A stretch of 64,000 bases of DNA from a virus (taxonomy: Duplodnaviria > Caudoviricetes): the IMG/VR virus record IMGVR_UViG_3300037424_000434, positions 160,001-224,000 of that record; one strand, 5' to 3'. The translations under genes and the position numbers were made by a program. Within the stretch, counting starts at the first letter, position 1, and each line of letters begins with the position of its first letter. The notes beneath the pieces were generated by a model. It worked only from the letters and a program-made list of their open reading frames with translations. It was not told where the DNA came from and searched no databases. This document shows positions 36,937 to 52,140 of this stretch, one piece after another.

Positions 36937-36973
36937 ACCAGTGAATAGTCTTGTGGGGATTCACAAAAAGCAT

Positions 36974-37044: not shown

Positions 37045-37065
37045 GTAATTTGTGAAAGGATTGTC

Positions 37066-37611: not shown

Positions 37612-37675
37612 TCTAATGGTAGGGCGGTGAGTTGCAACCTCACAAGCAACGGTTCGATTCCGTTAGGGAATTCCA
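37602..37675 (+). tRNA. tRNA-Cys(GCA)
   Basis: Cloverleaf, U73, CCA; overlaps stop codon of upstream ORF. Confidence 0.85.
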
Positions 37676-37730
37676 ATAGCAAGGTAAAGGAGGGTTTGAT
37701 TCCCTCCATGTCCCCACTAAGGAGAATTAT

Positions 37731-37880
37731 ATGGATGATTCACAGTTTTATAGAAAAATTAATGATCGTTCATGTAACAGTTCTACGTATCATAAGAAGG
37801 ATGGAACATCCGTTAGATCAAAATTGAAAGAGGAATTGAAAAAAATAAAAAAAGAGCTTGACAAAGAGGAATTGGTTTGA
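37731..37880 (+). CDS. 49-aa hypothetical protein
   Basis: MDDSQFYRKINDRSCN...; AAGGAG RBS. Confidence 0.5.
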   Translation: MDDSQFYRKINDRSCNSSTYHKKDGTSVRSKLKEELKKIKKELDKEELV

Positions 37881-37886
37881 TAGTAT
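37858..37886 (+). promoter_or_regulatory. Sigma70 promoter, TTGACA class
   Basis: TTGACA-N17-TAGTAT after A-tracts. Confidence 0.7.
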
Positions 37887-37944
37887 CCGTCTTAAGTTAA
37901 GCAACACGAAACAAAAATTTACGTTTTTTGATAACAGAATAAAT

Positions 37945-38023
37945 GGGTAGTGAGATTAAAATATGCTGGGCATATGTCAGCCTCCAAAACTGATTTTAAT
38001 GGGTTCGATTCCTACGCTACCCG
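37945..38023 (+). tRNA. tRNA-Trp(CCA), irregular D-arm, no CCA end
   Basis: gggtagt/gctaccc acceptor, loop CTCCAAA, T-loop TTCGATT. Confidence 0.6.
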
Positions 38024-38050
38024 CAAAAAACAAAAACGAAAAAATAAAGA

Positions 38051-38079
38051 TTGACATTTGGTGTGAGATGTGTTTTAAT
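38051..38079 (+). promoter_or_regulatory. Sigma70 promoter, TTGACA class
   Basis: TTGACA-N17-TTTAAT after A-tracts. Confidence 0.6.
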
Positions 38080-38105
38080 CCACCTCAGTTCAATAGAAAA
38101 GTTGT

Positions 38106-38184
38106 CGCGGTATAGGGAAGTTTGGTTGTTCCCGTTGGGTTCATATCCCAAAGATCATCGGTTCGAATCCGATTACCGCTCCCA
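38106..38184 (+). tRNA. tRNA-fMet(CAT)
   Basis: 1:72 mismatch, three G-C pairs in anticodon stem, CCA. Confidence 0.85.
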
Positions 38185-38192
38185 GTTGTTAT

Positions 38193-38270
38193 GCTCCTGT
38201 AGTCCAAATTGGAGAAGGACATTGCTCTTTCAAGGCAAGTACGAGGGTTCGATTCCCTTCAGGAGTACCA
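38193..38270 (+). tRNA. tRNA-Glu(TTC)
   Basis: Cloverleaf with CCA. Confidence 0.9.
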
Positions 38271-38273
38271 GTC

Positions 38274-38402
38274 GTTTTGGATAGTAGTTTAAATGACGAA
38301 GAACGTGCCCTTTAATATGGGCAAAGTGAGGAAAGTACCTCGTAAATCGCAGTACAGAAATGTACGCCGTGTTTAGGGAAACCGCCCTCCTATCCAAAAC
38401 CA
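38274..38402 (+). ncRNA. Unassigned structured RNA candidate
   Basis: 11-bp closing stem gttttggatag/ctatccaaaac, four internal hairpins, ends ACCA. Confidence 0.5.
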
Positions 38403-38407
38403 GTTTT

Positions 38408-38482
38408 GTCTCATTCGACTAGGGGTTAGGTCATTAGCCTCTCAAGCTAAAAACATGGGTTCGATTCCCATATGAGACACCA
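38408..38482 (+). tRNA. tRNA-Glu(CTC)
   Basis: Cloverleaf with CCA. Confidence 0.9.
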
Positions 38483-38569
38483 ATTGGAACAATGGCACGG
38501 TGATGGATGGTCTGTCTTGGTTGGATAAACATGAGTTCAGAGAAGAAAGAAAAAATAAGGAAATAGTTG

Positions 38570-38598
38570 TTGACAATGAGTGTGAGTTCTGATATACT
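38570..38598 (+). promoter_or_regulatory. Sigma70 promoter, TTGACA class
   Basis: TTGACA-N17-TATACT with TG extension. Confidence 0.8.
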
Positions 38599-38612
38599 CT
38601 ACTCAAGTCAAA

Positions 38613-38791
38613 ACCTCTCCAACGCAGAGAACGAATCGTAAACGTTGGAAACCAAAGTCTATGACAGTTAGAGGTCTGTTATCTAGTCAAGTTAAAATGA
38701 AAGTTGTGTTCATGGGTGCAGCACATTAAATCGCTTGGGGCCAACGTGGCGAATTCGAATAGTCATATAAAAACGAGAGCTTTCATTTTAA
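38613..38791 (+). ncRNA. Two closed structured domains, unassigned
   Basis: acctct/agaggt + ccaacg/cgttgg; 14-bp ttaaaatgaaagtt/agctttcattttaa. Confidence 0.4.
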
Positions 38792-38799
38792 ACATTTTG

Positions 38800-38876
38800 G
38801 GGGTAGGGCACAGGTTGGCATCTGGTCTTGTCTGTAAAACAACGCAAATACGGTTCGATTCCGTGCTACCCCACCA
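38800..38876 (+). tRNA. tRNA-Tyr(GTA), short variable arm
   Basis: ggggtag/ctacccc, loop CTGTAAA, CCA. Confidence 0.75.
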
Positions 38877-39134
38877 ATTTAAATGGTAAAAACAGGTAAC
38901 ATTCTGGTTTAGCTAACCAAAATAAATCCTGTCTATAATTTGATGACCGGTTAAATCAGATTATTAAGCGTTTGCCCCTAGAGTCGATAAAGGGGTAACA
39001 ATTTAAATGGTAAAAACAGGTAACATTCCGGTTTAGCTGGCCAAAAATAAATCCTGTCTATAATTTGATGACCGGTTAAATCAGATTATTAAGCGTTTGC
39101 CCCTAGAGTCGATAAAGGGGTAGCAATTTAAATG
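38875..39134 (+). repeat. Tandem duplication of a 124/125-nt three-hairpin element (ncRNA candidate)
   Basis: Copies start 38875 and 38999, 11-nt third start at 39124; differences mostly keep pairing via G-U. Confidence 0.9.
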
Positions 39135-39139
39135 TATAT

Positions 39140-39314
39140 GCTCCCGTGTAGAAATATGGCCAACACGAGAAAAAATATCCCATTCATGAGGGGATTACAG
39201 TAACGTGAAGGACTCTAGCCCGGACTCGAAAGGCGCATCAAGCGAAGGTGAACGGTTATCTGGGATAGTTGATAGCAACTATAATTGCTGGTTCGAAGCC
39301 AGCCGGGGGCTCCA
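39140..39314 (+). ncRNA. tRNA-like RNA with ~100 extra nt
   Basis: Acceptor gctcccg/cgggggc, T-arm gctgg-ttcgaag-ccagc, U-CCA end, internal CAT-loop hairpin. Confidence 0.65.
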
Positions 39315-39454
39315 ATTTGTGGGTACCAAATAAAGAGTGCTTTGTCAACCACGGAGAAAGACATGAAACAAGAAATTAATCAAGAAGAACTGGAAAAAAT
39401 GGAGACGTGAAAAATGGATTGAATACGCATCGGTTCGCGTAACTTTGGAGCGCC

Positions 39455-39709
39455 TTGTTATGGCGCGGAGGTAGGGAAGTGTTAAGTAAAAATCAAATGA
39501 AGGCATTAAAGGAATTAACCGCAGCCTTCAAAAAGTGTAAAGCGGTAAATATTTCTTTCTGCGGGATGGACTGCGATCTTCTTGCGTATGATCGAGAAGA
39601 ATTAAGCTCTCAAGAAAAAGAGTTGGGTGGTCTTCACGAAGCGCAAGGAAAATGTGACCATGAAATAGTTAATACGCATGGGACATATTTAGACAGCGGA
39701 GGCTGGTGA
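39455..39709 (+). CDS. Hypothetical protein
   Basis: 84 aa in track; true start probably 39479 or later. Confidence 0.5.
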   Translation: MLWRGGREVLSKNQMKALKELTAAFKKCKAVNISFCGMDCDLLAYDREELSSQEKELGGLHEAQGKCDHEIVNTHGTYLDSGGW

Positions 39710-39877
39710 ACGTAAGGGGGGCGATTAGTACCCTATAGCGTTTTCGTTTAAGAGTGGAACAAACGAAACAAATTCCATTCAAACATTAATATCGCGGTTT
39801 TGTTGAAAAGAAAAGAACGGTTGACCATGCGTTAAAGGTTGTGGGATTTAGTAATTCTTTTTGGCAAACATTTTTGT

Positions 39878-39951
39878 ACCCGATTAGTACAATGGGAGTG
39901 CAACTGGCCTACACCCAGTAGACACGGGTTCGATTCCTGTATCGGGTACCA
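39878..39951 (+). tRNA. tRNA-Val(TAC)
   Basis: Cloverleaf with CCA; C at position 33. Confidence 0.85.
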
Positions 39952-40008
39952 TTAAAACATGTTAGGGTTGAACCATGGGTTCGTAAAAACTTTCCCCCTA
40001 AACTTTAT

Positions 40009-40083
40009 CCCTGTGTAGCTGAGATGGATTAGCGATTGCCTGAAGAGCAGTATAGAAGGGTTCGATACCTTTCACAGGGACCA
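40009..40083 (+). tRNA. tRNA-Phe(GAA)
   Basis: Cloverleaf with CCA. Confidence 0.9.
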
Positions 40084-40089
40084 TTTATT

Positions 40090-40359
40090 CATGGGTCGCG
40101 CCCATGGCGCATCTATCCTATGCGAAAATCATGGTTACGATCATGGTGTGGATACGAGTGTAGAATATAAACCCTCACCGGTGGACTCTGGCATGGTGGC
40201 TACGAACTACTATTGGAATGTTCAATTCATTCTGGGGGTGCCAATTAGAATTGATTGTTGCGGTATAATATGGGCGAGTTAGGGCACGTCCACAGAATCC
40301 ACCTTTAGTGGGGTGGCACAAAGCACTTTAGATGGAGTTGTCAACCATCCAACAATCAA
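40090..40359 (+). ncRNA. Unassigned structured RNA candidate
   Basis: catggg/cccatg, cgcat/atgcg, 10-bp ttgattgttg/caacaatcaa enclosing further hairpins. Confidence 0.45.
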
Positions 40360-40370
40360 CACAAGTTTAT

Positions 40371-40447
40371 GGGAGCGTGATGGAATTGGCATACGTGTTG
40401 GTCTTAGAAACCAAATTTTAGGGGTTCGAATCCCCTCGCTCCTACCA
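40371..40447 (+). tRNA. tRNA-Leu(TAG), short variable arm
   Basis: Cloverleaf with CCA. Confidence 0.88.
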
Positions 40448-40453
40448 AAATGC

Positions 40454-40670
40454 AACAGGTAAACGCTCTAAAGAACATGAGAATGGGTTGGGAGTAATAT
40501 TCCGTAACGGATTACCTGACCACTAGGCTACCCATCTAGACCCTTTATTGGGATAAATCATGTCACCTGTTTACACTACAGTTATAGATACTGTATTATA
40601 AGATTCGTGGGGGATTAGCCCACGAATGCATAGGCATAAGGTTTAAGCCCTTGCAATGACGGGCTCAAAT
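40454..40670 (+). ncRNA. Unassigned structured RNA candidate
   Basis: aacaggt/acctgtt closed domain plus three consecutive hairpins. Confidence 0.5.
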
Positions 40671-40703
40671 CAACTAGCTTAGACCGATTTTTTAAGAATT
40701 TAC

Positions 40704-40774
40704 CGGTGTGTGAGAGAATGGTACTCATCCATCCTTGGACGATGGAAACGCAGGTTCGATTCCTGCCATGCCGA
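40704..40774 (+). tRNA. tRNA-Pro(TGG), no encoded CCA
   Basis: cggtgtg/catgccg, loop CTTGGAC. Confidence 0.8.
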
Positions 40775-40775
40775 C

Positions 40776-40838
40776 TTGACATGTAATAAATATCTCCCTA
40801 TCTCTATTTATAATAGTTCGATATTTATTACATGTCAA
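40776..40838. repeat. Perfect 19-bp inverted repeat with 25-nt spacer
   Basis: ttgacatgtaataaatatc / gatatttattacatgtcaa. Confidence 0.95.
40805..40838 (-). promoter_or_regulatory. Antisense promoter candidate
   Basis: Minus strand TTGACA-N17-TATTAT overlapping minus-strand TATAAATA. Confidence 0.45.
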
Positions 40839-40941
40839 TATATTATACTACATGTTTGAAAGGTACGCACTTTGGGTTGCACCCTATAGCGTTTTAACTA
40901 CTTGCCGAGCAGGGCTTTTCAACTTTCAAACAATTTTTTAT

Positions 40942-41017
40942 GCGGGTAGAACTCAGTCTCATGGTGAGGCAGTAGCCTTCCAAGCTATCGTTAGGTGTTC
41001 GATTCACCCTACCCGCT
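40942..41017 (+). tRNA. tRNA-Gly(TCC), irregular, no CCA
   Basis: gcgggta/tacccgc, loop CTTCCAA; 5 extra nt before D-stem. Confidence 0.65.
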
Positions 41018-41110
41018 TTTTACGAATATCGAACATATATCCGAAATCCTCGGGGTGAATGGATACCGATGAACCCCTTGAGGTGAGTAGGTAACGTAAC
41101 AAAAGCATTT

Positions 41111-41185
41111 GATGCTATCGTATAAGGGTTATTACCTCTGGTTGTCAGCCAGATAATGCGGGTTCGAGTCCCGCTAGCATCGCCA
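41111..41185 (+). tRNA. tRNA-Asp(GTC)
   Basis: Cloverleaf with CCA. Confidence 0.9.
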
Positions 41186-41212
41186 TTTTTTGTTATATAG
41201 ATAGACAGTTAT

Positions 41213-41286
41213 GCTCCTCTAGTTCAATGGCAGAGCAATCGCCCGATTAGCGATGAATCAGGGTTCAAATCCTTGGGGGAGTACCA
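41213..41286 (+). tRNA. tRNA-Ile(GAT)
   Basis: Cloverleaf with CCA; atypical loop CCGATTA. Confidence 0.75.
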
Positions 41287-41295
41287 GAATTTTGT

Positions 41296-41370
41296 TCCTT
41301 CTTAGTTCAGTGGCAGAACGCTTGGCTGTTAACCAAGATGTCGCAAGTTCGAATCTTGCAGAAGGAGCCA
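41296..41370 (+). tRNA. tRNA-Asn(GTT)
   Basis: Cloverleaf with CCA. Confidence 0.92.
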
Positions 41371-41373
41371 TTT

Positions 41374-41445
41374 CAGCGGGGTTAGTTTAAGGGAGAACAG
41401 AGAGGGCTTGCCTCTCAGACATGGGTTTGGATCCTATGCCCTGTA
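41374..41445 (+). pseudogene. Degenerate tRNA remnant
   Basis: D-arm-like tagtttaagggagaac, gagag/ctctc stem, broken T-loop and acceptor. Confidence 0.4.
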
Positions 41446-41474
41446 ATATTTTGTGTTAACACGAGATCAAGGAG

Positions 41475-41729
41475 ATGATTATGGTTAACACGTTCGAAGA
41501 TGACAATTATTTAAAGAGGTTTAATGAGTCACGATCCTTTCTTTGTTCGGGTGGTTATTTAACAGATGGGGAGAATCGAAAAATCAAAGATCGGTTCAGG
41601 AAAGCCGCAGCAAAAAGTGGAACAAAGCTGGAAACGCTTCCCTTTTTTATCAAGCAAAGGGTGAACGTGAACGATTTTGGTATATCAAGGATCATGAATG
41701 AGACAAACAAAGAGAGAATCTTTTGTTGA
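41475..41729 (+). CDS. Hypothetical protein
   Basis: 84 aa, AAGGAG RBS. Confidence 0.55.
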   Translation: MIMVNTFEDDNYLKRFNESRSFLCSGGYLTDGENRKIKDRFRKAAAKSGTKLETLPFFIKQRVNVNDFGISRIMNETNKERIFC

Positions 41730-41925
41730 AGCAATAACAAACATGTTAATCGGATATTCATGTGGCGTATTATCTCAACTATTAGTGTTTCCTTTGGTGG
41801 GAATTTATGTATCATGGAGTGATAATTTATTGCTTGCTCTGTATTTTACTTTAGTAAGCTTGTTGCGAAATTATGTTGTTAGAAGAGTTTTTGATGCAAA
41901 GAAGCATAAAAAGGTTTATGTATAG
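41698..41925 (+). CDS. Small two-TM phage membrane protein (QTKRESFVEAITN family)
   Basis: Recognisable N-terminal motif and two hydrophobic helices. Confidence 0.6.
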   Translation: MRQTKRESFVEAITNMLIGYSCGVLSQLLVFPLVGIYVSWSDNLLLALYFTLVSLLRNYVVRRVFDAKKHKKVYV

Positions 41926-41939
41926 GTCGTAAGTATTAC

Positions 41940-42009
41940 GGGGCTGGCGCTGGGACCGCATAGGAGTTTTGCAAATTTCTTGAGGTGGGTTCGATTCCCA
42001 CTAGCTCCA
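41940..42009 (+). tRNA. tRNA-Ala(TGC), short D-arm, no CCA
   Basis: G3-U70, A73, loop TTTGCAA, T-arm gtggg/cccac. Confidence 0.65.
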
Positions 42010-42064
42010 TAATCAGTTAAGATTGGAGAGAGAACGGTACTATTTTTAACTTGGAGGTAATTAG

Positions 42065-42220
42065 CTGACGCTTGACGAATATATTGAAATGGCTAAACAA
42101 GAATTGGATCTCATGAGAGAAGATTATGAAAGAAATAACAGAATTGATCCAGATTCATGGCCATTAGAACTTGACTCCGGTGCATGGGGCGAGGAAGAAA
42201 TGTGCAGGAGATTTTCTTAA
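42065..42220 (+). CDS. 51-aa acidic protein with CTG start
   Basis: GGAGG RBS then CTG ACG CTT GAC GAA TAT... Confidence 0.4.
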   Translation: MTLDEYIEMAKQELDLMREDYERNNRIDPDSWPLELDSGAWGEEEMCRRFS

Positions 42221-42231
42221 TAAGAGTTTAC

Positions 42232-42310
42232 GGGGGATTGGGCAATTTGGCAAAGCCGCTTGATTCAAAACCAAGAGATTTTACGGGTTCGATCCCCGTA
42301 TCCCCTACCA
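42232..42310 (+). tRNA. tRNA-Leu(CAA)
   Basis: Loop TTCAAAA, A73, CCA. Confidence 0.8.
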
Positions 42311-42321
42311 AAAGAGTTTAT

Positions 42322-42397
42322 GGTGTAGTGCCCAAGAGGTGTTTGGCATTCGGCTGTGACCCGGATTGATTGAGTTCGATTCTCACATTACACCCCA
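42322..42397 (+). tRNA. tRNA-His(GTG)
   Basis: G-1:C73, loop CTGTGAC, CCA. Confidence 0.85.
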
Positions 42398-42405
42398 AAT
42401 TAAAG

Positions 42406-42480
42406 GCACTCATGGTGAAAAGGAAATCACAGGAAACTTCTAATTTCTCGTTCTAGGTTCGAGTCCTAGTGGGTGCGCCA
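42406..42480 (+). tRNA. tRNA-Arg(TCT)
   Basis: Cloverleaf with CCA. Confidence 0.9.
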
Positions 42481-42554
42481 TTTGATAACATTTTTTGTAC
42501 ACTAACAATTGAAATGTTATCACACAAAAATTATAATTGAAAGTGTTTAAAGAC

Positions 42555-42695
42555 AAATTTCGGTGTCGTAAATTAGAGTTACTTCGTCTTCTAAACGAGT
42601 GGTCGCTGGTTCGAATCCAGCCAAGATCCCCAAAAAGGTCTTGTAGCTCAGCGGTAGAGCACTAAATCTCTCTGATTGATTGTTACCCGAAATTT
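42555..42695 (+). ncRNA. yrlA: YrlA-type Y RNA (circularly permuted tRNA-like domain)
   Basis: Order anticodon-like arm, T-arm, acceptor 3' strand, loop, acceptor 5' strand, D-arm, all inside a 5'/3' terminal bulged stem. Confidence 0.8.
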
Positions 42696-42703
42696 TGAGT
42701 TAT

Positions 42704-42778
42704 GCTCCAATAGTTAAACGGTATAACGGGCAACTTATAATTGTTTGTTGGAGGGTTCGACTCCCCCTTGGAGTACCA
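42704..42778 (+). tRNA. tRNA-Ile(TAT)
   Basis: Loop CTTATAA, A73, CCA. Confidence 0.8.
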
Positions 42779-42799
42779 CTTTTTTAATAACGACAATGA

Positions 42800-43025
42800 T
42801 AAGCGGCAACGGGCACCCAATACTGCCATAAGTGCGGGTGGTTTCAACCGCAAACGATAAAACCGAGTTGGGATTGCTGCCCTGATTGCGGAAACGAGAA
42901 AATCCCTTTCGTGGTTGGGCGGTACATCGTTGAAACAAAGAAGTGTGGCCGATGGCTCTGGGTATATTTTGAAACAAAAAATGTCGGGTTTATACCGGCA
43001 ACCTAACAACCCACTCTGGGACTTC
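42800..43025 (+). ncRNA. Unassigned structured RNA candidate
   Basis: tgcgg/ccgca, aacgat/atcgtt enclosing gggatt/aatccc, gtcgg/ccggc; no credible + ORF. Confidence 0.5.
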
Positions 43026-43035
43026 GTGATGATGA

Positions 43036-43110
43036 ACGGGTGTAGTCCAATTGGCAGGAGACGCGGGGCTTAAAACCCTGACAGTGTGAGTTCGAATCTC
43101 ATCACCCGTA
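43036..43110 (+). tRNA. tRNA-Leu(TAA), CTA in place of CCA
   Basis: acgggtg/cacccgt, loop CTTAAAA. Confidence 0.82.
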
Positions 43111-43130
43111 CTAATAGAAAGGAAAAGATT

Positions 43131-43364
43131 ATGAAAGTAAACATTGACGCAAAAGAATCATTACAACGTGACCCCGCGCATGATATTCAATCTGTCTTAA
43201 ACATTGGGTTCAAATGTCCGGACACGCGAACTGCGATAAACAAGGTAGTGGCAAGACTTGAGGGCCGTATCTGGGCACACGAAAACGATGAACAACAGAT
43301 GTGCGAGGATGAATACGAGGACTGCAAGAACGATTTAGCGTTGCTGAAGTTACTGATCGGCTAA
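43131..43364 (+). CDS. Hypothetical protein
   Basis: ATG 43131 after AAAGGA; track start overlaps tRNA. Confidence 0.6.
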   Translation: MKVNIDAKESLQRDPAHDIQSVLNIGFKCPDTRTAINKVVARLEGRIWAHENDEQQMCEDEYEDCKNDLALLKLLIG

Positions 43365-43367
43365 CCA

Positions 43368-43673
43368 GTGAAATTCTTAATAAAAGAGATTTCTAATGAA
43401 ACTTTTATTCACATTAGAAAGTGGATAGTGGATGTTGATGGAAATGAAAGCTGTAACTATAGAAGTCGTACCAGTATTAATTGTTTCTTTTATGGCAAAC
43501 ACCATAGAAACAAAACAAAAGACTTCCTGTATCATGGGGAGTCTTTGAGGGAAGCAATTGACGTTAGAGGATTTGATCCAGAAGGAGTTGCTGAGGTTGA
43601 TTCTATCTGGGAGTTTTATAAGATCATTGGTTATGATTATAAAAAGAAAAAATATGTTGACAAAACACTATAG
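43368..43673 (+). CDS. Hypothetical protein
   Basis: 101 aa. Confidence 0.55.
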   Translation: MKFLIKEISNETFIHIRKWIVDVDGNESCNYRSRTSINCFFYGKHHRNKTKDFLYHGESLREAIDVRGFDPEGVAEVDSIWEFYKIIGYDYKKKKYVDKTL

Positions 43674-43685
43674 AAAGGATACTAT
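43657..43685 (+). promoter_or_regulatory. Sigma70 promoter, TTGACA class
   Basis: TTGACA-N17-TACTAT. Confidence 0.6.
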
Positions 43686-43690
43686 TAATC

Positions 43691-43828
43691 ATGGCAGCAA
43701 AAAATGGTTCAACCAAAAGCTCAAAACGTAAAATGAAAACTTCTATTGGTAAGAGCAAGAACACTGTATACAACAAAGCTCACCAAAAGAAACATGGCAA
43801 AAAAGTATACCGTGGTCAGGGGCGATAA
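43691..43828 (+). CDS. 45-aa very basic protein ending KKVYRGQGR
   Basis: MAAKNGSTKSSKRKMKTSIGKSKNTVYNKAHQKKHGKKVYRGQGR; AAAGGA RBS. Confidence 0.65.
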   Translation: MAAKNGSTKSSKRKMKTSIGKSKNTVYNKAHQKKHGKKVYRGQGR

Positions 43829-43897
43829 ATGATTATTGCACCAAATGGCATGAGAACGAAGAAATCAGGTATTTCTTATTAAGTGACAGGAATAATC

Positions 43898-44053
43898 ATG
43901 CATTGGTTAAAGAAATTATTGGGTCTATGTGATCATAAGTGGGAGATCATCAAAGAAATTGAATGCTTTGAATATAGTTTTTCAAAACATCCATATAAAA
44001 CGAAATATATCTTACAATGTAAACATTGTGGGAACATTAAAAGAGTAAAGTGA
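43898..44053 (+). CDS. 51-aa Zn-binding hypothetical (CDHKW...CKHC)
   Basis: AGGA RBS; same pattern as 26042 ORF. Confidence 0.55.
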   Translation: MHWLKKLLGLCDHKWEIIKEIECFEYSFSKHPYKTKYILQCKHCGNIKRVK

Positions 44054-44218
44054 AGTAAAAGGCAATGGCAGTTAAAGATGACAAAAAAGATGTTGTTAAA
44101 AAGCCGTACAACATATTTTGAGGAGAATGACGATGAAACGAAAACAAAGAGATAAACTCATCGTGTTCTTGGGATAGATTAACACTCGCCCATGAGCACG
44201 TAAAACAACAGTGTTTAT

Positions 44219-44296
44219 GGGCGCGTAACTCAATTGGATTAGAGTATCCGGCTTTTACCCGGTAAGTTGTGGGTTCGAGTCCCACCGCGCCCACCA
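44219..44296 (+). tRNA. tRNA-Lys(TTT)
   Basis: Cloverleaf with CCA. Confidence 0.9.
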
Positions 44297-44310
44297 AAAT
44301 TTTGATTTGC

Positions 44311-44384
44311 GCGGGTGTAGTTCAATGGAAGAACAGTATACTTTTAATATACCTATCGGGGTTCGATTCCCTGTACCCGTACCA
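44311..44384 (+). tRNA. tRNA-Lys(TTT), second divergent copy
   Basis: Loop CTTTTAA, A73, CCA. Confidence 0.75.
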
Positions 44385-44393
44385 TTTTTTGGG

Positions 44394-44468
44394 GGGGGTA
44401 TAACTCAGTTGGCAGAGTACCTGACTCTTAATCAGGAGGTCACTGGTTCGATCCCAGTTGCCCCACCA
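44394..44468 (+). tRNA. tRNA-Lys(CTT)
   Basis: Loop CTCTTAA; acceptor one pair short. Confidence 0.8.
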
Positions 44469-44485
44469 AGATAAAAATAGAACAT

Positions 44486-44571
44486 GGAAGGTAGCGTCAT
44501 GGCGACAAACTAGTCTTGAAAATTAGGCCGGGTGTGAAAGCCCGAGGGTTCGATTCCTTTACCTTCTTCCA
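44486..44571 (+). tRNA. tRNA-Ser(TGA)
   Basis: Long variable arm, loop CTTGAAA, U73-CCA. Confidence 0.75.
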
Positions 44572-44601
44572 CCAATGGACAAAGCATAAGTCCTTTATTT
44601 C

Positions 44602-44675
44602 GCCGCTATAGTTAAAAGGTATAACGCCTGTTTTGTAATCAGGATTTCGGGGTTCGAGTCCTCGTAGCGGCCCCA
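44602..44675 (+). tRNA. tRNA-Thr(TGT)
   Basis: Cloverleaf with CCA. Confidence 0.88.
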
Positions 44676-44701
44676 TTTTAAACAACAAAAGGCTCAAGAA
44701 G

Positions 44702-44863
44702 ATGTTGACATTATCGAAGCTTAGAAAAGCTTGGCTGAAAAACGTAGGTTACGTTCGCATTGCTAATGAGTTGTGCCTTGATCCCGATATGGTCCAAACT
44801 GTTTATGCACGATGGACAGAAGAGCACCTTAGAAAAAGATCTGGATGGATGTATCCATATTAA
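44702..44863 (+). CDS. 53-aa hypothetical protein
   Basis: MLTLSKLRKAWLKNVGYVRIANEL... Confidence 0.45.
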   Translation: MLTLSKLRKAWLKNVGYVRIANELCLDPDMVQTVYARWTEEHLRKRSGWMYPY

Positions 44864-44956
44864 GGAAAGTTAATCAATCAGGGCATTGACACCGACTGCT
44901 AATCGGTTGGTTCAGTAGTGATACTGAATAGGTTTCGAGTACCTAGCTTTCCTCCA
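44864..44956 (+). tRNA. tRNA-Ser(GCT), atypical fold
   Basis: 8-bp acceptor possible, 5-bp D-stem, long variable arm, U73-CCA. Confidence 0.8.
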
Positions 44957-44974
44957 TTAATGAAAGGATGACTT

Positions 44975-45715
44975 ATGTTTAAGATAAATCTTCATGCCCA
45001 TACTCAATATTCCGATGGTCAGGCCACTATTGCGCAAATGGCAGAAGCCTGCAAAGATTTGGAATTCACTGCATGTGTTATTACTGACCACGTTTATATG
45101 GATGATCGTCGGCCAAGTGTTTCACAGAGTCAATATTTACATAAAATCCTACCAGAAGCCCGTGAGGTCCAAGAGAAAGTAGGTATTCCTGTTATTGTCG
45201 GTGCGGAATTTAGCATTGGACGAATGGAAGAATGCTTAGTGTTTGGAACACAGGCAATCACAGAGCTATATTCTATGAGACAAGAATATATGAACATTAA
45301 AGACGCATATCTTGACATAGCAGATCTTGCATATATTCGAGATAATCGGGATTGTGCTGTTATTTTATGCCACCCTAGCATTCCCGTATACGGCGATAAT
45401 TTTTCCACATTTGACCCCGAAAATCCCCAAAAAACCAAACCCATGAAAAATTGGATAACCCAAGGCGGGGTTAATGTTATTGATGGATATGAAGGGATTA
45501 ATTCCGGCCAACCCCAGTTTGGTAAATTTAGAAATGTGCCCAAAGAGTTTGATGGTTTGATTTCCTTTTGCAACTCGGATGCCCATAGTGTGATATCATT
45601 GTCATTGGGGTATAATGAGACAGCATCCCCTATATACACAGAAGACGATCTTATAAGGTATATCAAGGGTGGGGGTGTTTGGAAGCACCATACTGTGCCT
45701 TGGAGATACGAATAA
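44975..45715 (+). CDS. PHP-domain phosphoesterase
   Basis: NLHAHTQYSDG, ITDH, GAE, CHP, NSDAH. Confidence 0.88.
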   Translation: MFKINLHAHTQYSDGQATIAQMAEACKDLEFTACVITDHVYMDDRRPSVSQSQYLHKILPEAREVQEKVGIPVIVGAEFSIGRMEECLVFGTQAITELYSMRQEYMNIKDAYLDIADLAYIRDNRDCAVILCHPSIPVYGDNFSTFDPENPQKTKPMKNWITQGGVNVIDGYEGINSGQPQFGKFRNVPKEFDGLISFCNSDAHSVISLSLGYNETASPIYTEDDLIRYIKGGGVWKHHTVPWRYE

Positions 45716-45966
45716 TGGACAATAACAAACTTGACAAATTAAGAGATATACGGTATACTGTTCGTAAGTGTTGTGGTACATGTAACAATGCCTGTTTTGA
45801 ATTCAGGGCTGAATGGGGGACATGCAAAATACATGAATATATACACAAAAAACATACAGGTAAACCTAGACATCTGAGTATTCATATGTATGGTTCGTGT
45901 GGCAGTTATGATATGAATAATGTTTTTGAAGCTGTCACTGAACACTATAAGGAGTTTTATGAGTAA
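45715..45966 (+). CDS. Cys/His-rich hypothetical protein
   Basis: CCGTC..CKIH..GSC; ATG 45715 couples to PHP stop. Confidence 0.6.
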   Translation: MDNNKLDKLRDIRYTVRKCCGTCNNACFEFRAEWGTCKIHEYIHKKHTGKPRHLSIHMYGSCGSYDMNNVFEAVTEHYKEFYE

Positions 45967-46624
45967 TGTAAAGCTGATTGCTGTGACAAAACCTGTTCTG
46001 GATGGGTGTGAGACAGCAGAAGAATTGATTTCGTATTGTGCTAGGGTATCAAACCCAGACAATCAAAGAAAGTATGATACAGCCGGTAAGTTGCTTCGAT
46101 ACATGTTAAAACATAAACATTTCAGTCCATTTGAAATGGCCCATATGGTTATGGAGATCAAAACAACCCGCGACATTGCTCGGCAGATTTTGCGTCACAG
46201 ATCGTTTTCTTTTCAAGAGTATAGTCAGAGATATGCAGCGGTAACCCCTGATTCGTTTGTGCTATCAGAGGCTCGTTTGCAGGACAAGTTCAATCGACAA
46301 AATTCAATTGAGGTTAGTGATAAAGCATTGCTTGATTGGTGGACTTTGAATCAAGGGAGGCTTTTGGACATGACGATTGCTCTGTATAATACCGCTCTCG
46401 AAAAGGGTATTGCAAAGGAAGTGGCCCGAAAGGTTTTGCCTGAAGGTATTACCGGGAGTGTGATGTACATGTCAGGCACAGTTCGCAGTTTCATTCATTA
46501 TTGTGATGTTAGACGGAAAAGCGATACTCAGCTTGAGCACCGATTGATTGCAAATGAAGTGTGGGATATATTATGCCAGCAGTTCCCCACTATACCCGAA
46601 GCACTGGAGATGTCAGATGAGTAA
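45959..46624 (+). CDS. thyX: Flavin-dependent thymidylate synthase
   Basis: ARVS, HFSPFE, RHRSFSFQEYSQRY, TQLEHR. Confidence 0.97.
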   Translation: MSNVKLIAVTKPVLDGCETAEELISYCARVSNPDNQRKYDTAGKLLRYMLKHKHFSPFEMAHMVMEIKTTRDIARQILRHRSFSFQEYSQRYAAVTPDSFVLSEARLQDKFNRQNSIEVSDKALLDWWTLNQGRLLDMTIALYNTALEKGIAKEVARKVLPEGITGSVMYMSGTVRSFIHYCDVRRKSDTQLEHRLIANEVWDILCQQFPTIPEALEMSDE

Positions 46625-46805
46625 AGAAATCGTGATATGTGAGGAGTGCTGTGGTAGGGGGTTTTTGATTAAATCAGTGTTAGAAGACTACCATAGGGGC
46701 ATATATACCGAAAAGAACGTTCCGTGTAACACGTGCAAGGAGTCCGGCAGACTTATCAAGATCACAACCATTGTAATTAGACCATACGAAAGTGACGTAG
46801 ACTGA
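46617..46805 (+). CDS. DnaJ-type zinc-finger small protein
   Basis: CEECCGRG and CNTCKESG repeats. Confidence 0.6.
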   Translation: MSKEIVICEECCGRGFLIKSVLEDYHRGIYTEKNVPCNTCKESGRLIKITTIVIRPYESDVD

Positions 46806-46817
46806 TTTTTTTTTTTG

Positions 46818-46846
46818 TTGACACAAAGAATGTGGGGTGGTATAGT
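46818..46846 (+). promoter_or_regulatory. Sigma70 promoter, TTGACA class
   Basis: TTGACA-N17-TATAGT after T-tract. Confidence 0.75.
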
Positions 46847-46887
46847 GTTCCTGTAGCGACAAACAACCCTGTCGAACGGAGCTAACT

Positions 46888-47262
46888 ATGTGTCAAATGA
46901 GTGATATTCATGATGAAGCGGTTAATGCGGGTTTGGAAGCAGGTAGCCGACACAAACCTGTTCCGATGATTGTGGGCGAGGAAAAAACCCTCTTCTCAAA
47001 TGAGATTGATTATGACAAAAAGGTGTACTATGTTGAATCAGGGGTTTGTGGGTTTGCGTGGGTTGAGATTTTTCCCGCTCGTGGCAAGTTCGTTTCGTAT
47101 TTAAAGAAAAACGATATTGGCCGGGTTGGGGATCGCGGTTATAGGATTCCTGTTTTTGTGTTCGGACAGTCACTTGAACGGAAAGAGAAATACGCCGAGG
47201 CTTTTGCATCTGTTCTAAAAAAACATGGCATTAAAGCGTATGCGAACTCCCGAGTGGATTGA
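46888..47262 (+). CDS. Conserved-type phage hypothetical protein
   Basis: GVCGFAWV...QSLERKEKYAEAFA motif. Confidence 0.7.
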   Translation: MCQMSDIHDEAVNAGLEAGSRHKPVPMIVGEEKTLFSNEIDYDKKVYYVESGVCGFAWVEIFPARGKFVSYLKKNDIGRVGDRGYRIPVFVFGQSLERKEKYAEAFASVLKKHGIKAYANSRVD

Positions 47263-47268
47263 TTTTTG

Positions 47269-47276
47269 TATAAATA
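47269..47276 (+). promoter_or_regulatory. Late promoter TATAAATA
   Basis: Exact consensus 7 nt upstream of tRNA-like element. Confidence 0.65.
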
Positions 47277-47283
47277 GAAGTAT

Positions 47284-47355
47284 GGCGGTATGTATGATTA
47301 TGACTGGTTGGCTCATATCCGACCGGGGAAAGTTTGATTCTTTCTACCGCTACCA
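47284..47355 (+). tRNA. D-arm-degenerate tRNA(CAT)-like element
   Basis: ggcggta/taccgct-A-CCA, loop CTCATAT, T-arm gaaag-tttgatt-ctttc. Confidence 0.6.
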
Positions 47356-47407
47356 TATAGTCAAAAAGAGAATGAGTCTCTTGGCGATTTTTTGTTAACA
47401 CAAAGAG

Positions 47408-47668
47408 GTGAATTATATGTCAAAGCATCACGACGAGGTTATTTCGGCGTATGGGTTGAGCACTGTAACATTTGACCATCTTGCCTTATACACTGTTGGT
47501 GTATTTTATTGGGGTGGTAATGGTTCTCCTGTTAGTACATATAAAATATTGGCTGATAAGAAAGAAGACGCTATTAAATATGTTAATAATAATTTGAAAG
47601 TATCTTATCTTCACCGAGTATCAATAATTTCAACAGAACCAAATCCAAACAGGCCAAAACATGCGTAA
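47408..47668 (+). CDS. Hypothetical protein
   Basis: 86 aa, GAGG RBS. Confidence 0.5.
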   Translation: MNYMSKHHDEVISAYGLSTVTFDHLALYTVGVFYWGGNGSPVSTYKILADKKEDAIKYVNNNLKVSYLHRVSIISTEPNPNRPKHA

Positions 47669-47888
47669 GTATGAAATTAAAACAGTGGAAACAAGGTTGC
47701 TTATCAGCCTGAAATGTGATATCTGTGGTATGGATATCATAAACTCACCACTTGAAGAACAAGAAGCAATCTTAATCGCAGATATTGGTGGATATAGTTC
47801 CGTGTTTGGTGACGGATGCGAATATCAACTTGATATGTGCCAGCACTGTTTCAAAGAAAAGCTTGGCCAATATGTGAGAATTTTATGA
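47661..47888 (+). CDS. Zn-binding hypothetical protein
   Basis: CDICG ... DMCQHC. Confidence 0.6.
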   Translation: MRKYEIKTVETRLLISLKCDICGMDIINSPLEEQEAILIADIGGYSSVFGDGCEYQLDMCQHCFKEKLGQYVRIL

Positions 47889-48046: not shown

Positions 48047-48107
48047 CATGATGACAAAAGGAGTTTAACACTTGGCTAACGGGCTTGTGGCCCAAGGAGG
48101 TAGACAG

Positions 48108-48930: not shown

Positions 48931-48960
48931 TTCTTTCCTGAATTCGTATAATGGTGGTGT

Positions 48961-52057: not shown

Positions 52058-52140
52058 AATGACGGTGGCGTAGAACAGGGATACTTCACATGACGAAAAG
52101 ACACCTTGCTCGTTTGATCCCCTGATTTGTAATTAACATT
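52058..52140 (+). ncRNA. Second Y-like RNA without tRNA-like domain
   Basis: ggtggcgtagaacagggatacttc resembles YrlA 5' ggtgtcgtaaattagagttacttc; cagggat/atcccctg stem. Confidence 0.55.

What the first reader, a model, noticed from the sequence alone, without database searches (positions are those of the whole stretch)
42555..42695. YrlA-type Y RNA: a circularly permuted tRNA mimic inside the tRNA array
Seen: an anticodon-like arm (ttcgt-CTTCTAA-acgag), variable region, perfect T-arm, acceptor 3' strand caagatc, loop cccaaaaa, acceptor 5' strand ggtcttg, perfect D-arm (gctc-agcggta-gagc), all inside aattagag/ctctgatt and aaatttcgg/ccgaaattt stems. Established: bacterial YrlA Y RNAs have this permuted tRNA-like domain plus a terminal bulged helix that binds Ro60/Rsr. 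Inference: the phage supplies Y RNA to engage host (or phage) Rsr/PNPase or RtcB-type RNA repair. No TROVE gene lies in this window.
Basis: partly seen in the sequence, partly recalled or inferred. Interest (0 to 1): 0.72.

Follow-up and report, generated by a model that had tools for sequence, protein, structure and literature searches.

The report
Phage Y RNA shaped like tRNA
This 141-base stretch is a real gene for a Y RNA, a small RNA that docks onto the ring protein Ro60 and carries a rearranged tRNA look-alike. The kind is already known from bacteria and some phages, so it is a good new example with a few unusual details, not a new kind of thing.

Summary
All four cloverleaf arms are present in permuted order (anticodon-like arm, T arm, acceptor 3' strand, loop, acceptor 5' strand, D arm), enclosed by two stems.

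The YrlA reading is supported.
- Rfam YrlA gives only a partial match: 38 bits against a threshold of 69.
- A profile built only from other contigs hits 42553-42695 at E=1.5e-29.
- The family has 118 copies in 83 IMG/VR loci and 225 in 89 TROVE-anchored loci: 75 from prokaryote genome assemblies, mostly Acidobacteriaceae, and 14 from IMG/VR. All six helices covary.
- In 93 of 93 cases where a TROVE/Ro60 gene is in the fetched locus, the RNA lies on the same strand, at a median of 198 nt.

This 236-kb phage encodes its own Ro60 110 kb away, outside the window. It also encodes three shorter candidate Y RNAs, RtcB, an Rnl2-type ligase and a CCA-adding enzyme.

Three features are unusual but not unique:
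- The gene sits inside the tRNA array, unlinked to Ro60. At least seven other large-phage contigs show the same placement.
- The 7-bp acceptor stem is followed by an encoded C-CCA-AAAA, which suggests RNase P cleavage as in Mycobacterium smegmatis YrlA.
- The hairpin that the literature calls 'V' behaves like an anticodon arm.

Verdict: new member of a known kind. Expression and Ro60 binding are untested.

The parts
42509..42537 (+). Sigma-70-like promoter TTGAAA-17 nt-TATAAT. The predicted start is about 42544-42546, roughly 10 nt before the terminal stem.
   Evidence: 11 of 12 consensus matches. Consensus match only; not shown to be active.
42555..42695 (+). Whole Y RNA (YrlA type), from the 5' strand to the 3' strand of the terminal stem.
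   Evidence: nhmmer profile from other contigs: 42553-42695, E=1.5e-29. Own covariance model R1: 130 bits over all 155 positions, with this sequence in the seed. Fold.
42555..42563 (+). Lower terminal stem, 5' strand AAAUUUCGG. It pairs with 42687-42695.
   Evidence: The family helix covaries: 6 of 6 pairs change on both sides.
42564..42571 (+). 5' side of the internal loop with GUCGUAA (42565-71). This is the candidate Ro60-binding motif and a variant of GNCGAAN0-1G.
   Evidence: Family consensus is G-U-G-G-Y-G-W-A-G at the same distance from GUUAC. Motif defined in PMC4201824. The same motif with the same 21-nt spacing occurs at 4 places in the genome and 0 in the reversed-pattern control.
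42571..42578 (+). Upper stem, 5' strand AAUUAGAG. It pairs with 42670-42677.
   Evidence: 7 of 8 family pairs change on both sides.
42579..42582 (+). UUAC linker, the conserved YUAY of YrlA RNAs.
   Evidence: GTTAC is invariant in alignment A1; YUAY described in PMC4201824.
42583..42599 (+). Anticodon-like arm (the 'V' stem-loop of the literature): 5-bp stem and 7-nt loop CUUCUAA, with triplet UCU at 42590-92.
   Evidence: Among 60 unique family members: U33 95%, Y32 83%, R37 93%, A38 88%. The two loop-proximal pairs covary.
42600..42604 (+). 5-nt variable loop UGGUC. C42604 can form the Levitt pair with G42651.
   Evidence: AGGTC and TGGTC are the commonest forms in the family. The Levitt pair in YrlA is described in PMC4201824.
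42605..42621 (+). T arm GCUGG-UUCGAAU-CCAGC.
   Evidence: The family helix is 99% paired and covaries.
42622..42643 (+). Acceptor-like hairpin: 3' strand CAAGAUC, discriminator C42629, CCA 42630-32, spacer AAAA 42633-36, 5' strand GGUCUUG 42637-43. The predicted RNase P site lies between A42636 and G42637.
   Evidence: All 7 family pairs covary. 17 of 22 true tRNA genes in the window also encode CCA followed by A/T-rich spacer. Cleavage itself is inferred from M. smegmatis YrlA (PMC4201824).
42644..42661 (+). U8-A9, D arm GCUC-AGCGGUA-GAGC and A26.
   Evidence: It matches the YrlA D-arm consensus GUAGCUCA...GGUAGAGC in the Rfam alignment.
42662..42669 (+). 3' linker CUAAAUCU between the D arm and the upper stem.
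   Evidence: The same CTAAA(A)TCT linker occurs in Xanthomonas phage Tabio and in L062, L075 and L093.
42670..42695 (+). 3' strands of the upper stem (CUCUGAUU) and lower stem (CCGAAAUUU), around the internal loop GAUUGUUAC. The family consensus here is ..UUGUUCCC.
42704..42778 (+). Downstream tRNA-Ile(UAU), 8 nt after the Y RNA and followed by a T run. It is probably co-transcribed, and RNase P cutting at its 5' end would set the Y RNA 3' end (inferred).
   Evidence: In seven other contigs the Y RNA lies within the tRNA array, in six of them with a tRNA starting or ending within about 5 nt of the modelled RNA on at least one side.
52062..52122 (+). Candidate short Y RNA (YrlB-like, no tRNA module): GGCGUAG-AACAGGG-AUACUUC ... 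CCUUGCU-CGUUUGAUCCCC. A TTGACA-17-TAAGAT sequence lies upstream.
   Evidence: (17.4 bits). Its fold is not better than shuffles. Candidate only.

Best explanation
The stretch is the gene of a YrlA-type Y RNA of a 236-kb uncultured phage.

Shown by computation:
- The sequence folds into a complete tRNA cloverleaf opened between positions 26 and 27. Its acceptor stem is closed by a loop.
- From the opening a two-part bulged helix extends, formed by the RNA's 5' and 3' ends.
- The RNA belongs to a large covarying family that almost always lies beside, and on the same strand as, a Ro60/TROVE gene.
- This phage encodes such a protein.

Inferred mechanism:
1. The RNA is transcribed from its own promoter together with the next tRNA.
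2. It is trimmed by the tRNA-processing enzymes.
3. Its bulged helix, with the GUCGUAA motif on the 5' strand, binds the phage Ro60 ring.
4. The tRNA-like module recruits a tRNA-binding partner or the host exonuclease PNPase. The particle then degrades, gates or helps repair structured RNAs such as damaged tRNAs during infection. This follows the Ro60-Y RNA-PNPase particles of Deinococcus and Salmonella and the ternary assemblies formed in gel-shift assays with Thermus phage phiLo components.

Further inference, about even odds: the acceptor stem has 7 pairs and is followed by an encoded C-CCA-AAAA, exactly like this phage's tRNA genes. RNase P therefore probably cuts before G42637. That would leave a two-piece RNA with a free CCA end, as shown for M. 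smegmatis YrlA.
For: Structure: all helices are present.

Homology:
- blastn finds 42577-42671 at about 77% identity in Xanthomonas phages, in unannotated DNA directly upstream of a TROVE+vWA_Ro60 gene.
- The pattern GTTACTTC-N15-40-GGTTCGAATCC finds at least 120 IMG/VR contigs.
- A profile from 118 of their copies, with no window sequence, hits 42553-42695 at E=1.5e-29.

Covariation: 93.9% of cells are paired against 59.5% in shuffles and 36-48% when partners are slid. 33 of 35 pairs change on both sides (seed alignment).

Link to Ro60:
- 38 of 49 records with the motif encode TROVE, and 14 of 15 of those at least 90% complete.
- 93 of 93 copies with TROVE in the fetched locus are on its strand, at a median of 198 nt.
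- 225 copies lie in 89 TROVE-anchored loci (75 from prokaryote genome assemblies, mostly Acidobacteriaceae; 14 from IMG/VR), nearly all upstream of the gene.

Own genome:
- TROVE+vWA_Ro60 protein (105.7 bits; PHROG 850), with the MIDAS DxSxS residues invariant.
- The 5' motif with identical spacing occurs 4 times, two of them just upstream of TROVE.
- RtcB, an Rnl2-type ligase and a CCA-adding enzyme are present.
- No PNPase-type domain was found, so a host enzyme would be needed.

Rfam: YrlA matches the tRNA-like core at E=4e-7.

Cleavage: the CCA context equals that of 17 of 22 tRNA genes here. NCCA followed by an A/U-rich spacer recurs in L044, L056, L083 and L086.

Literature: PMC4201824, bioRxiv 10.1101/312249, PMC12135203.
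Against: - The Rfam YrlA score of 38.1 bits is below the gathering score of 69 and covers only model positions 24-84. Tandem tRNAs can give partial matches of 25-45 bits.
- The gene is 110 kb from the Ro60 gene and on the other strand, unlike 92 of 93 family members that lie within 4 kb.
- The 5' motif is GUCGUAA, not the published GNCGAA(N)G.
- There is no expression, end-mapping or binding data.
- The function of phage Ro60/Y RNA particles is unknown in vivo.
- Linkage of CCA-adding enzyme or RtcB to TROVE is not general in phage loci.
- Most family members have a tetraloop-capped acceptor, so cleavage is not a family trait.
Confidence: 0.88

Rival explanations
1. A circularly permuted or split tRNA-Arg(UCU) gene. 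The two halves would be cut free of the flanking helix and joined (or held together), giving a tRNA that is charged and used in translation.
For: Joining A42661 to U42583 in silico gives a 75-nt sequence that ARAGORN calls tRNA-Arg(tct). The CCA is encoded and the acceptor has 7 pairs. The phage has RtcB and an Rnl2-type ligase. Another first-stage note read the stretch this way.
Against: - The flanking helix has internal loops of 7 and 9 nt, not a bulge-helix-bulge. No tRNA-splicing endonuclease is found in the genome.
- The flanks are conserved Y RNA sequence, not arbitrary leader and trailer.
- The family is tied to TROVE genes, and most members have a tetraloop-closed acceptor that could never be charged.
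- 74 of 98 members also re-permute into callable tRNAs with many different triplets, so this is a family trait of a mimic.
- A normal tRNA-Arg(UCU) lies 75 nt upstream.
Confidence: 0.04
2. A decayed pair of neighbouring tRNA genes: the 3' part of one and the 5' part of the next. It would be a by-product of tRNA-array turnover with no function of its own.
For: The element lies in a dense tRNA array. Real tandem tRNAs here give partial matches to YrlA models (24.7 bits with Rfam; 45 bits with R1, model positions 36-113 only). ARAGORN and Rfam call a weak tRNA-Arg at 42562-42632 (29.9 bits). A dimeric-tRNA origin of YrlA has been proposed in the literature.
Against: - The match to the family covers the whole model, including the terminal stems, the 5' motif and the linkers.
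- The acceptor strands of the two 'halves' pair perfectly with each other.
- It has its own near-consensus promoter.
- The same arrangement inside tRNA arrays recurs in at least seven unrelated contigs.
- The sequence is identical in a second sediment study's contigs.
Confidence: 0.03
3. A Y RNA-derived tRNA decoy that works mainly without Ro60. The exposed anticodon-like loop and tRNA body would soak up or sense host tRNA-cutting defence nucleases or tRNA-modifying enzymes.
For: The anticodon-loop signature is conserved across the family. The gene is unlinked from Ro60 and sits among tRNAs that large phages are thought to carry partly to replace damaged host tRNAs (own knowledge). One complete provirus record has the RNA but no TROVE gene (G054).
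Against: There is no direct evidence. The Ro60-type helix and motif are fully retained here, and the genome keeps an intact Ro60 gene. The triplets vary widely, with no sign of matching particular nuclease targets.
Confidence: 0.05

Closest known systems
Mycobacterium smegmatis YrlA (Chen et al. 2014, RNA 20:1715; PMC4201824)
   Same: - Permuted tRNA-like module with T arm, 7-bp acceptor-like stem and D arm.
- YUAY motif and a stem-loop before the T arm.
- Ends paired into a Ro60-binding helix.
- The published RNA is cut by RNase P and carries CCA. Here the CCA and an RNase P-type junction are encoded.
   Different: - The M. smegmatis RNA lies just upstream of rsr. This one is 110 kb away, on the other strand, inside a tRNA array with its own promoter.
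- CCA is encoded here, whereas CA is added after cleavage in M. smegmatis.
- The 5' motif is GUCGUAA.
- Cleavage and Ro60 binding are not shown here.
Salmonella Typhimurium YrlA (Rfam RF02553; crystal structure 6CU1; bioRxiv 10.1101/312249)
   Same: The T arm, closed acceptor and D arm core aligns to Rfam model positions 24-84 with near-identical D-arm and T-loop sequences. Both are Y RNAs of a Ro60 system that sits with RtcB in Salmonella.
   Different: - Salmonella YrlA has a 6-bp acceptor and no anticodon loop. Its 'anticodon stem' runs straight into the Ro60-binding helix.
- This RNA has a separate 5-bp/7-nt hairpin and single-stranded linkers (UUAC, CUAAAUCU).
- It scores 38 bits, under the family's 69-bit threshold.
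Phage Ro60 / Y RNA-like pairs: mycobacteriophages, CcrColossus, Bacillus phage G (Chen 2014); Thermus phage phiLo Yrl1/Yrl2 (NAR 2025, PMC12135203)
   Same: Both are phage-encoded Ro60 systems with one or more phage-encoded Y RNAs. phiLo Ro60, Yrl and host PNPase form ternary assemblies in gel-shift assays, which is the model used here for the mechanism. TROVE homologues of this phage's protein occur in 102 sequenced phages.
   Different: The described phage Y RNAs lie next to the Ro60 gene. The text I searched for phiLo Yrl1/2 describes stem-bulge-stem RNAs and does not mention a tRNA-like module. This phage's TROVE protein is at most 35% identical to any in the phage collection.
Unannotated Y RNA array of Xanthomonas/Xylella phages Tabio, Sopo, Usme, MET23-P3 (LR743528, OK913680)
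   Same: These give the closest DNA match, about 77% over 95 nt. The module at L009:2972-3127 has the same architecture, GUUAC, hairpin stem UUCGN/NCGAG, CTAAAATCT linker and 3' UUGUUCCCC.
   Different: There the RNA is the last of about five tandem modules directly upstream of a 439-aa TROVE gene. Its triplet is GUU and its acceptor is capped by a short loop without CCA.
Circularly permuted tRNA genes of Cyanidioschyzon merolae (from my own knowledge; not checked in a paper here)
   Same: The 3' half of the cloverleaf is encoded before the 5' half, with the acceptor ends linked by a short spacer.
   Different: Those are matured through a bulge-helix-bulge, a splicing endonuclease and a circular intermediate into working tRNAs. 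Here there is no such motif or enzyme, and the flanks are a conserved Ro60-type helix.

Membership tests
YrlA-type bacterial/phage Y RNA | tRNA-like module in the order T arm, closed acceptor-like stem, UA, D arm, with conserved T-loop and D-arm sequences and tRNA tertiary-pair nucleotides. | tested here: met
   GCUGG-UUCGAAU-CCAGC, 7-bp stem, UA, GCUC-AGCGGUA-GAGC. G15/C48, G18G19 and U54U55C56 are present.
YrlA-type bacterial/phage Y RNA | Score at or above the Rfam RF02553 gathering threshold (69 bits). | tested here: not met
   38.1 bits, model positions 24-84 only. TROVE-adjacent RNAs of Xanthomonas phage Tabio also fall below it (52.1 and 37.3 bits), so the curated model does not cover this branch.
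YrlA-type bacterial/phage Y RNA | 5' and 3' ends pair into a bulged helix that carries the Ro60-binding motif GNCGAAN0-1G near the 5' end. | tested here: inconclusive
   The helix is present and covaries. The motif here is GUCGUAA, differing at two positions. At one of them the family itself is split between A and U. Binding was not tested.
YrlA-type bacterial/phage Y RNA | Conserved YUAY followed by a stem-loop ('V') before the T arm. | tested here: met
   UUAC 42579-82, then hairpin 42583-99. GTTAC is invariant in A1. Feature described in PMC4201824.
YrlA-type bacterial/phage Y RNA | Encoded within about 4 kb of the Ro60/rsr gene on the same strand. | tested here: not met
   Element at G000:C1:202555-202695 (+); TROVE at 91352-92986 (-). 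Other large-phage records also have unlinked copies: 36-49 kb away in G049 and 48 kb in G048.
YrlA-type bacterial/phage Y RNA | A Ro60/TROVE protein is encoded by the same genome. | tested here: met
   TROVE 105.7 bits plus vWA_Ro60 36 bits; PHROG 850 at 196 bits.
YrlA-type bacterial/phage Y RNA | Sequence homology to RNAs adjacent to Ro60 genes. | tested here: met
   nhmmer E=1.5e-29 with a profile that excludes the window; blastn to Xanthomonas phages; adjacency statistics.
YrlA-type bacterial/phage Y RNA | Physically bound by Ro60/Rsr in cells. | not testable with these tools
   Needs immunoprecipitation or a gel-shift assay.
Canonical tRNA | Acceptor stem formed by the RNA's own 5' and 3' ends, and a continuous D arm to anticodon arm. 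| tested here: not met
   The Rfam tRNA match at 42562-42629 scores 29.9 bits, with mispaired acceptor pairs and no D loop. The true acceptor strands are joined by a loop.
Permuted tRNA gene matured by splicing | Bulge-helix-bulge at the paired leader and trailer, and a tRNA-splicing endonuclease. | tested here: not met
   The internal loops are 7 and 9 nt between 9-bp and 8-bp helices. No PF01974 match in the genome. The definition is from my own knowledge.

The most novel reading that the evidence does not exclude
After RNase P cleavage the RNA becomes a two-piece, CCA-ended, complete tRNA-Arg(UCU) look-alike held together on the phage Ro60 ring. Its conserved anticodon-like loop is functional: it is recognised by tRNA-targeting host defence nucleases, by modification enzymes or by an aminoacyl-tRNA synthetase. 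The particle would then act as a decoy or sensor that couples tRNA damage to the phage's RtcB/ligase/CCA repair set. More generally, the 'V' stem-loop of YrlA RNAs would be a working anticodon-arm mimic.
Probability: 0.12. Interest if true: 0.8.

Novelty: new member of a known kind. Interest (0 to 1): 0.4.

Why it matters
Y RNAs with a tRNA-like module, and phage-encoded Ro60, are established. This finding adds a member rather than a mechanism. It is still useful in four ways.

1. The curated Rfam model misses this branch entirely (38 bits against 69). A simple model built here finds hundreds of copies in phages and in tandem arrays upstream of rsr in Acidobacteriaceae, so the family is much under-annotated.
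2. In large phages the gene is repeatedly placed inside the tRNA array, away from Ro60. This points to processing by the tRNA maturation machinery. ARAGORN calls this one as a weak tRNA-Arg, and it overlapped 15 of the 118 IMG/VR copies with a tRNA call.
3. The family is a complete cloverleaf opened at positions 26/27, with a conserved anticodon-loop signature. That fits the dimeric-tRNA origin idea and raises the question of what reads that loop.
4. This phage combines Ro60, four candidate Y RNAs, RtcB, an Rnl2-type ligase, a CCA-adding enzyme, 27 tRNAs and a tmRNA. That makes it a compact system for asking what Ro60 particles do during infection.

Tried and rejected
- megablast of 41000-45000 against sequenced phages: no match.
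- Sequencing runs: no RNA holder listed. Only three sediment DNA runs were found. Laying their contigs showed the source contig and an identical partial contig from a second study, with nothing on expression or RNA ends.
I used an nhmmer profile instead.
- The search for related loci with a 20-protein TROVE alignment failed because no stretch was conserved enough. A single-protein query worked.
- My first hairpin parser was wrong: the regex returned one parse per site. It was corrected.
- Folding of the three shorter Y RNA candidates gave no stability beyond shuffles, so they rest on motif and position only.
- Linkage of RtcB or CCA-adding enzyme genes to TROVE in other phage loci: RtcB in 2 loci, CCA-adding enzyme in none besides this genome. 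The nearness of the CCA enzyme to Ro60 here is therefore not used as evidence.
- The review PMC10870794 is not held. Figures and supplements of Chen 2014 were not readable, so I could not check how its authors drew the 'V' loop.
- A coding explanation is rejected: no ORF over 42 aa on the + strand within the element.
Full report
**What is there.** The window is G000:C1:160001-224000 of a 235,765-bp virus record rated 98% complete. Positions 36973-50709 hold 27 tRNA genes and a tmRNA, all on the + strand.
- lower stem AAAUUUCGG / CCGAAAUUU
- internal loop UGUCGUA / GAUUGUUAC
- upper stem AAUUAGAG / CUCUGAUU
- linker UUAC
- hairpin UUCGU-CUUCUAA-ACGAG
- variable loop UGGUC
- T arm GCUGG-UUCGAAU-CCAGC
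- acceptor 3' strand CAAGAUC
- loop C-CCA-AAAA
- acceptor 5' strand GGUCUUG
- UA, D arm GCUC-AGCGGUA-GAGC, A
- linker CUAAAUCU

The thermodynamic fold recovers all of these helices (z = -2.57). ARAGORN and the Rfam tRNA model see only a poor 'tRNA-Arg(tct)' at 42562-42632, at 29.9 bits with a mispaired acceptor. No ORF longer than 42 aa lies on the + strand within the element.

**Rfam test.** RF02553 (YrlA) matches 42598-42663 at 38.1 bits and E=4e-7, covering model positions 24-84 (T arm, closed acceptor, D arm). This is well under the gathering score of 69. A real tandem tRNA-Lys pair at 44263-44336 gives 24.7 bits with the same model, so this score alone is not decisive.

**Relatives.**
- A sensitive blastn finds 42577-42671 at about 77% identity in eleven 43-kb Xanthomonas/Xylella phages. 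The match lies in unannotated DNA that ends 60 nt before a 439-aa gene.
- That gene is annotated as hypothetical, but Pfam shows it to be TROVE plus Ro60-type vWA.
- The intergenic region holds about five tandem modules. Each carries 5' GGUGGUG(A/U)A(A/G), a stem, GUUACUUC and a 3' UUCCC. The last module has the same architecture as the window's element, including the hairpin UUCGA-CUGUUAA-UCGAG.
The modal length of 40-41 nt equals that of the window.

**Structure by covariation.**
- I aligned 28 clean copies and wrote the six-helix structure from the window's sequence. On that alignment 88.8% of cells pair, against 62.5% in shuffles and 36-50% with partners slid. Four of these helices had been used to pick the sequences; the two terminal helices had not.
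- The covariance model R1 built from it found 118 copies in 100 loci at E<=1e-8, often two to four in tandem.
- On those, 93.9% of cells pair against 59.5% in shuffles, and 33 of 35 pairs change on both sides. Every helix covaries, including the terminal helices and the two loop-proximal pairs of the hairpin. That alignment is fitted to the model, so it leans towards the structure.
- As a non-circular test, an nhmmer profile of those 118 sequences, with no window sequence, hits 42553-42695 at E=1.5e-29 over profile positions 6-147 of 154. Tandem tRNAs match only the middle of the profile.

**Link to Ro60.**
- Of 49 IMG/VR records holding the motif, 38 encode a TROVE protein, and 14 of 15 among those at least 90% complete.
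- In the fetched loci, 93 of 93 RNA copies with a TROVE ORF present lie on its strand. The median distance is 198 nt, and 92 are within 4 kb.
- R1 also finds 225 copies in 89 loci fetched through this phage's TROVE protein. 75 of these loci come from prokaryote genome assemblies, mostly Acidobacteriaceae genomes with up to about eight tandem copies upstream of rsr; the other 14 are IMG/VR contigs.
- This is the behaviour Chen et al. 2014 described for YrlA: within 4 kb, same strand, in 254 bacteria and 22 phages.
- Their diagnostic features are also present. These are a YUAY motif before a stem-loop ('V') upstream of the T arm, a GNCGAAN0-1G motif near the 5' end, and conserved T and D arms. 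Here YUAY is UUAC. The 5' motif is GUCGUAA, at the same offset from GUUAC as the family consensus G-U-G-G-Y-G-W-A-G.

**The phage's own system.**
- The genome encodes one TROVE+vWA_Ro60 protein at G000:C1:91352-92986 (-), 110 kb from the element and outside the window.
- Alignment with 19 relatives keeps the MIDAS DxSxS residues and suggests the true start is Met26.
- The pattern GNCGTAR-N6-10-TACTTC occurs four times in the genome and never in the reversed control, each time with the same 21-nt span. The four sites are the element, window 52067-52087, and two sites just upstream of TROVE on its strand.
- The last three sites lack a tRNA module and fold no better than shuffles. They are candidates only, comparable to YrlB.
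- The genome also has RtcB (195 bits), an Rnl2-type RNA ligase at window 36082-36573 just before the tRNA array, and a CCA-adding enzyme with an HD domain 2.8 kb downstream of TROVE.
- It has no PNPase-type domain and no tRNA-splicing endonuclease.

**Unusual features.**

1. *Placement.* The element has a near-consensus promoter, TTGAAA-17-TATAAT, at 42509-42537. It ends 8 nt before tRNA-Ile(UAU). Being unlinked from Ro60 is rare in the family but not unique:
- In records G049 and G048 the copies lie 36-49 kb from TROVE.
- In all seven TROVE-less loci I inspected (L060, L064, L065, L075, L078, L080, L104) the RNA sits inside a tRNA array on the tRNAs' strand. In six of them a tRNA starts or ends within about 5 nt of the modelled RNA on at least one side; in L064 the nearest tRNAs are about 360-410 nt away.
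- This suggests, by inference, that RNase P and the 3' trimming enzymes release it from polycistronic transcripts.

2. *Acceptor loop.* Most members cap the acceptor with a tetraloop. The window has a 7-bp stem followed by C-CCA-AAAA.
- 17 of 22 true tRNA genes of the window have the same N73-CCA-A/T-rich layout.
- NCCA plus an A/U-rich spacer recurs in four other credible members, where about 1.5 of 98 would be expected by chance.
- M. smegmatis YrlA, the one studied YrlA with a 7-bp stem, is cut by RNase P in vivo and in vitro and carries CCA, and both halves stay on Rsr.
- I therefore think cleavage before G42637 is about as likely as not.

3. *The hairpin.* Among 60 unique phage copies with a 7-nt loop, position 33 is U in 95%, 32 is a pyrimidine in 83%, 37 a purine in 93% and 38 is A in 88%. 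The middle triplet varies widely. The bacterial copies show the same pattern.
- A 4-5-nt variable loop (AGGUC or UGGUC) follows directly.
- Joining position 26 to 27 in silico turns 74 of 98 parsed members into sequences that ARAGORN calls as full tRNAs. The window's element becomes tRNA-Arg(tct).
- So the module is a whole cloverleaf opened at 26/27, and the 'V' stem-loop of the literature looks like a retained anticodon arm. This fits the dimeric-tRNA origin proposed by Sim and Wolin.
- In the texts I could read, this loop is called a variable arm and S. Typhimurium YrlA is said to lack an anticodon loop. I could not see the figures, so I do not claim priority.

**Mechanism.** What is shown is the fold, the family, the covariation, the genomic tie to Ro60 and the phage's gene content. 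The steps below are inferred from the studied systems: Deinococcus and Salmonella Ro60-Y RNA-PNPase, M. smegmatis YrlA, and phiLo Ro60-Yrl-PNPase.
1. The RNA binds the phage Ro60 through the bulged helix.
2. It presents the tRNA-like module to a partner, either host PNPase or a tRNA-binding enzyme.
3. The particle acts on structured or damaged RNAs during infection.

**Rivals.**
- A spliced or split working tRNA-Arg is unlikely. There is no bulge-helix-bulge and no endonuclease, the flanks are conserved Y RNA sequence, most relatives are tetraloop-closed, and a normal tRNA-Arg(UCU) lies next door.
- A dead tRNA pair is unlikely given the full-length family match, the element's own promoter and the recurrence of the arrangement.
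- A Ro60-independent decoy role cannot be excluded but has no direct support.

**Context from earlier notes of this scan (not checked by me).** The phage is described as T4-like and from sediment. Another first-stage reader called the same stretch a permuted tRNA gene.

**Verdict.** This is a new member of a known kind, with family-level observations that may be worth a specialist's look. Expression, RNA ends and Ro60 binding are untested.

Noticed in passing
window 52062-52122 (+): Short Y RNA-like module without a tRNA domain: GGCGUAG-AACAGGG-AUACUUC ... CCUUGCU-CGUUUGAUCCCC. A TTGACA-17-TAAGAT promoter-like site lies upstream and a gene starts at 52158. It matches both arms of the family profile weakly, and its fold is no better than shuffles.
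   Followed up: partly
L013 about 1210-1305 and 1313-1535, minus strand (= G000:C1 about 92,955-93,280): Two more Y RNA-like modules (GCCGUAG..AUACUUC and GACGUAG..GUUACUUC) lie directly upstream of the phage TROVE gene on its strand, behind a TTTACA-17-TATAAA site. The longest-ORF ATG of TROVE overlaps the second module, and the real start is probably Met26.
   Followed up: partly
window 36082-36573 (+); G000:C1:40558-41793 (+); G000:C1:87173-88564 (-): The phage carries an Rnl2-type RNA ligase just before the tRNA array, an RtcB ligase, and a CCA-adding enzyme with an HD domain 2.8 kb downstream of TROVE. Together with Ro60 this makes a dispersed RNA-repair set.
   Followed up: partly
L009:2500-3130 and L010 (Xanthomonas phages Tabio, MET23-P3 and nine relatives): About five tandem Y RNA-like modules lie upstream of a 439-aa gene annotated 'hypothetical' that is TROVE plus Ro60-type vWA. 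None of the RNAs is annotated in the public records.
   Followed up: partly
L163-L234 (mostly Acidobacteriaceae/Terracidiphilus genome contigs), about 1500-3000 of each locus: Tandem arrays of up to about eight full-length copies of this RNA type lie immediately upstream of rsr. That is far more copies per locus than the one or two Y RNAs described for studied bacteria.
   Followed up: partly
L160 4804-4965 and L161 5297-5460 (Cytophagaceae/Cytophagales MAG contigs): These contigs hold the closest TROVE relatives of the phage protein (49% identity). There the Y RNA lies just downstream of TROVE. The contigs may be phage DNA binned into the MAGs.
   Followed up: no
G054 (record of L085), 14766-15090: A provirus record rated 100% complete has two copies of the RNA but no TROVE gene. 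It may rely on the host's Ro60.
   Followed up: no
window 36973-50346: 17 of 22 tRNA genes found by Rfam encode the 3' CCA, usually followed by A/T-rich spacer. Neighbouring tRNAs are as little as 5-12 nt apart.
   Followed up: yes
L065 2608-2680 (-): ARAGORN calls a tRNA with anticodon UUA (reads the stop codon UAA) within the tRNA array of a 372-kb phage contig.
   Followed up: no
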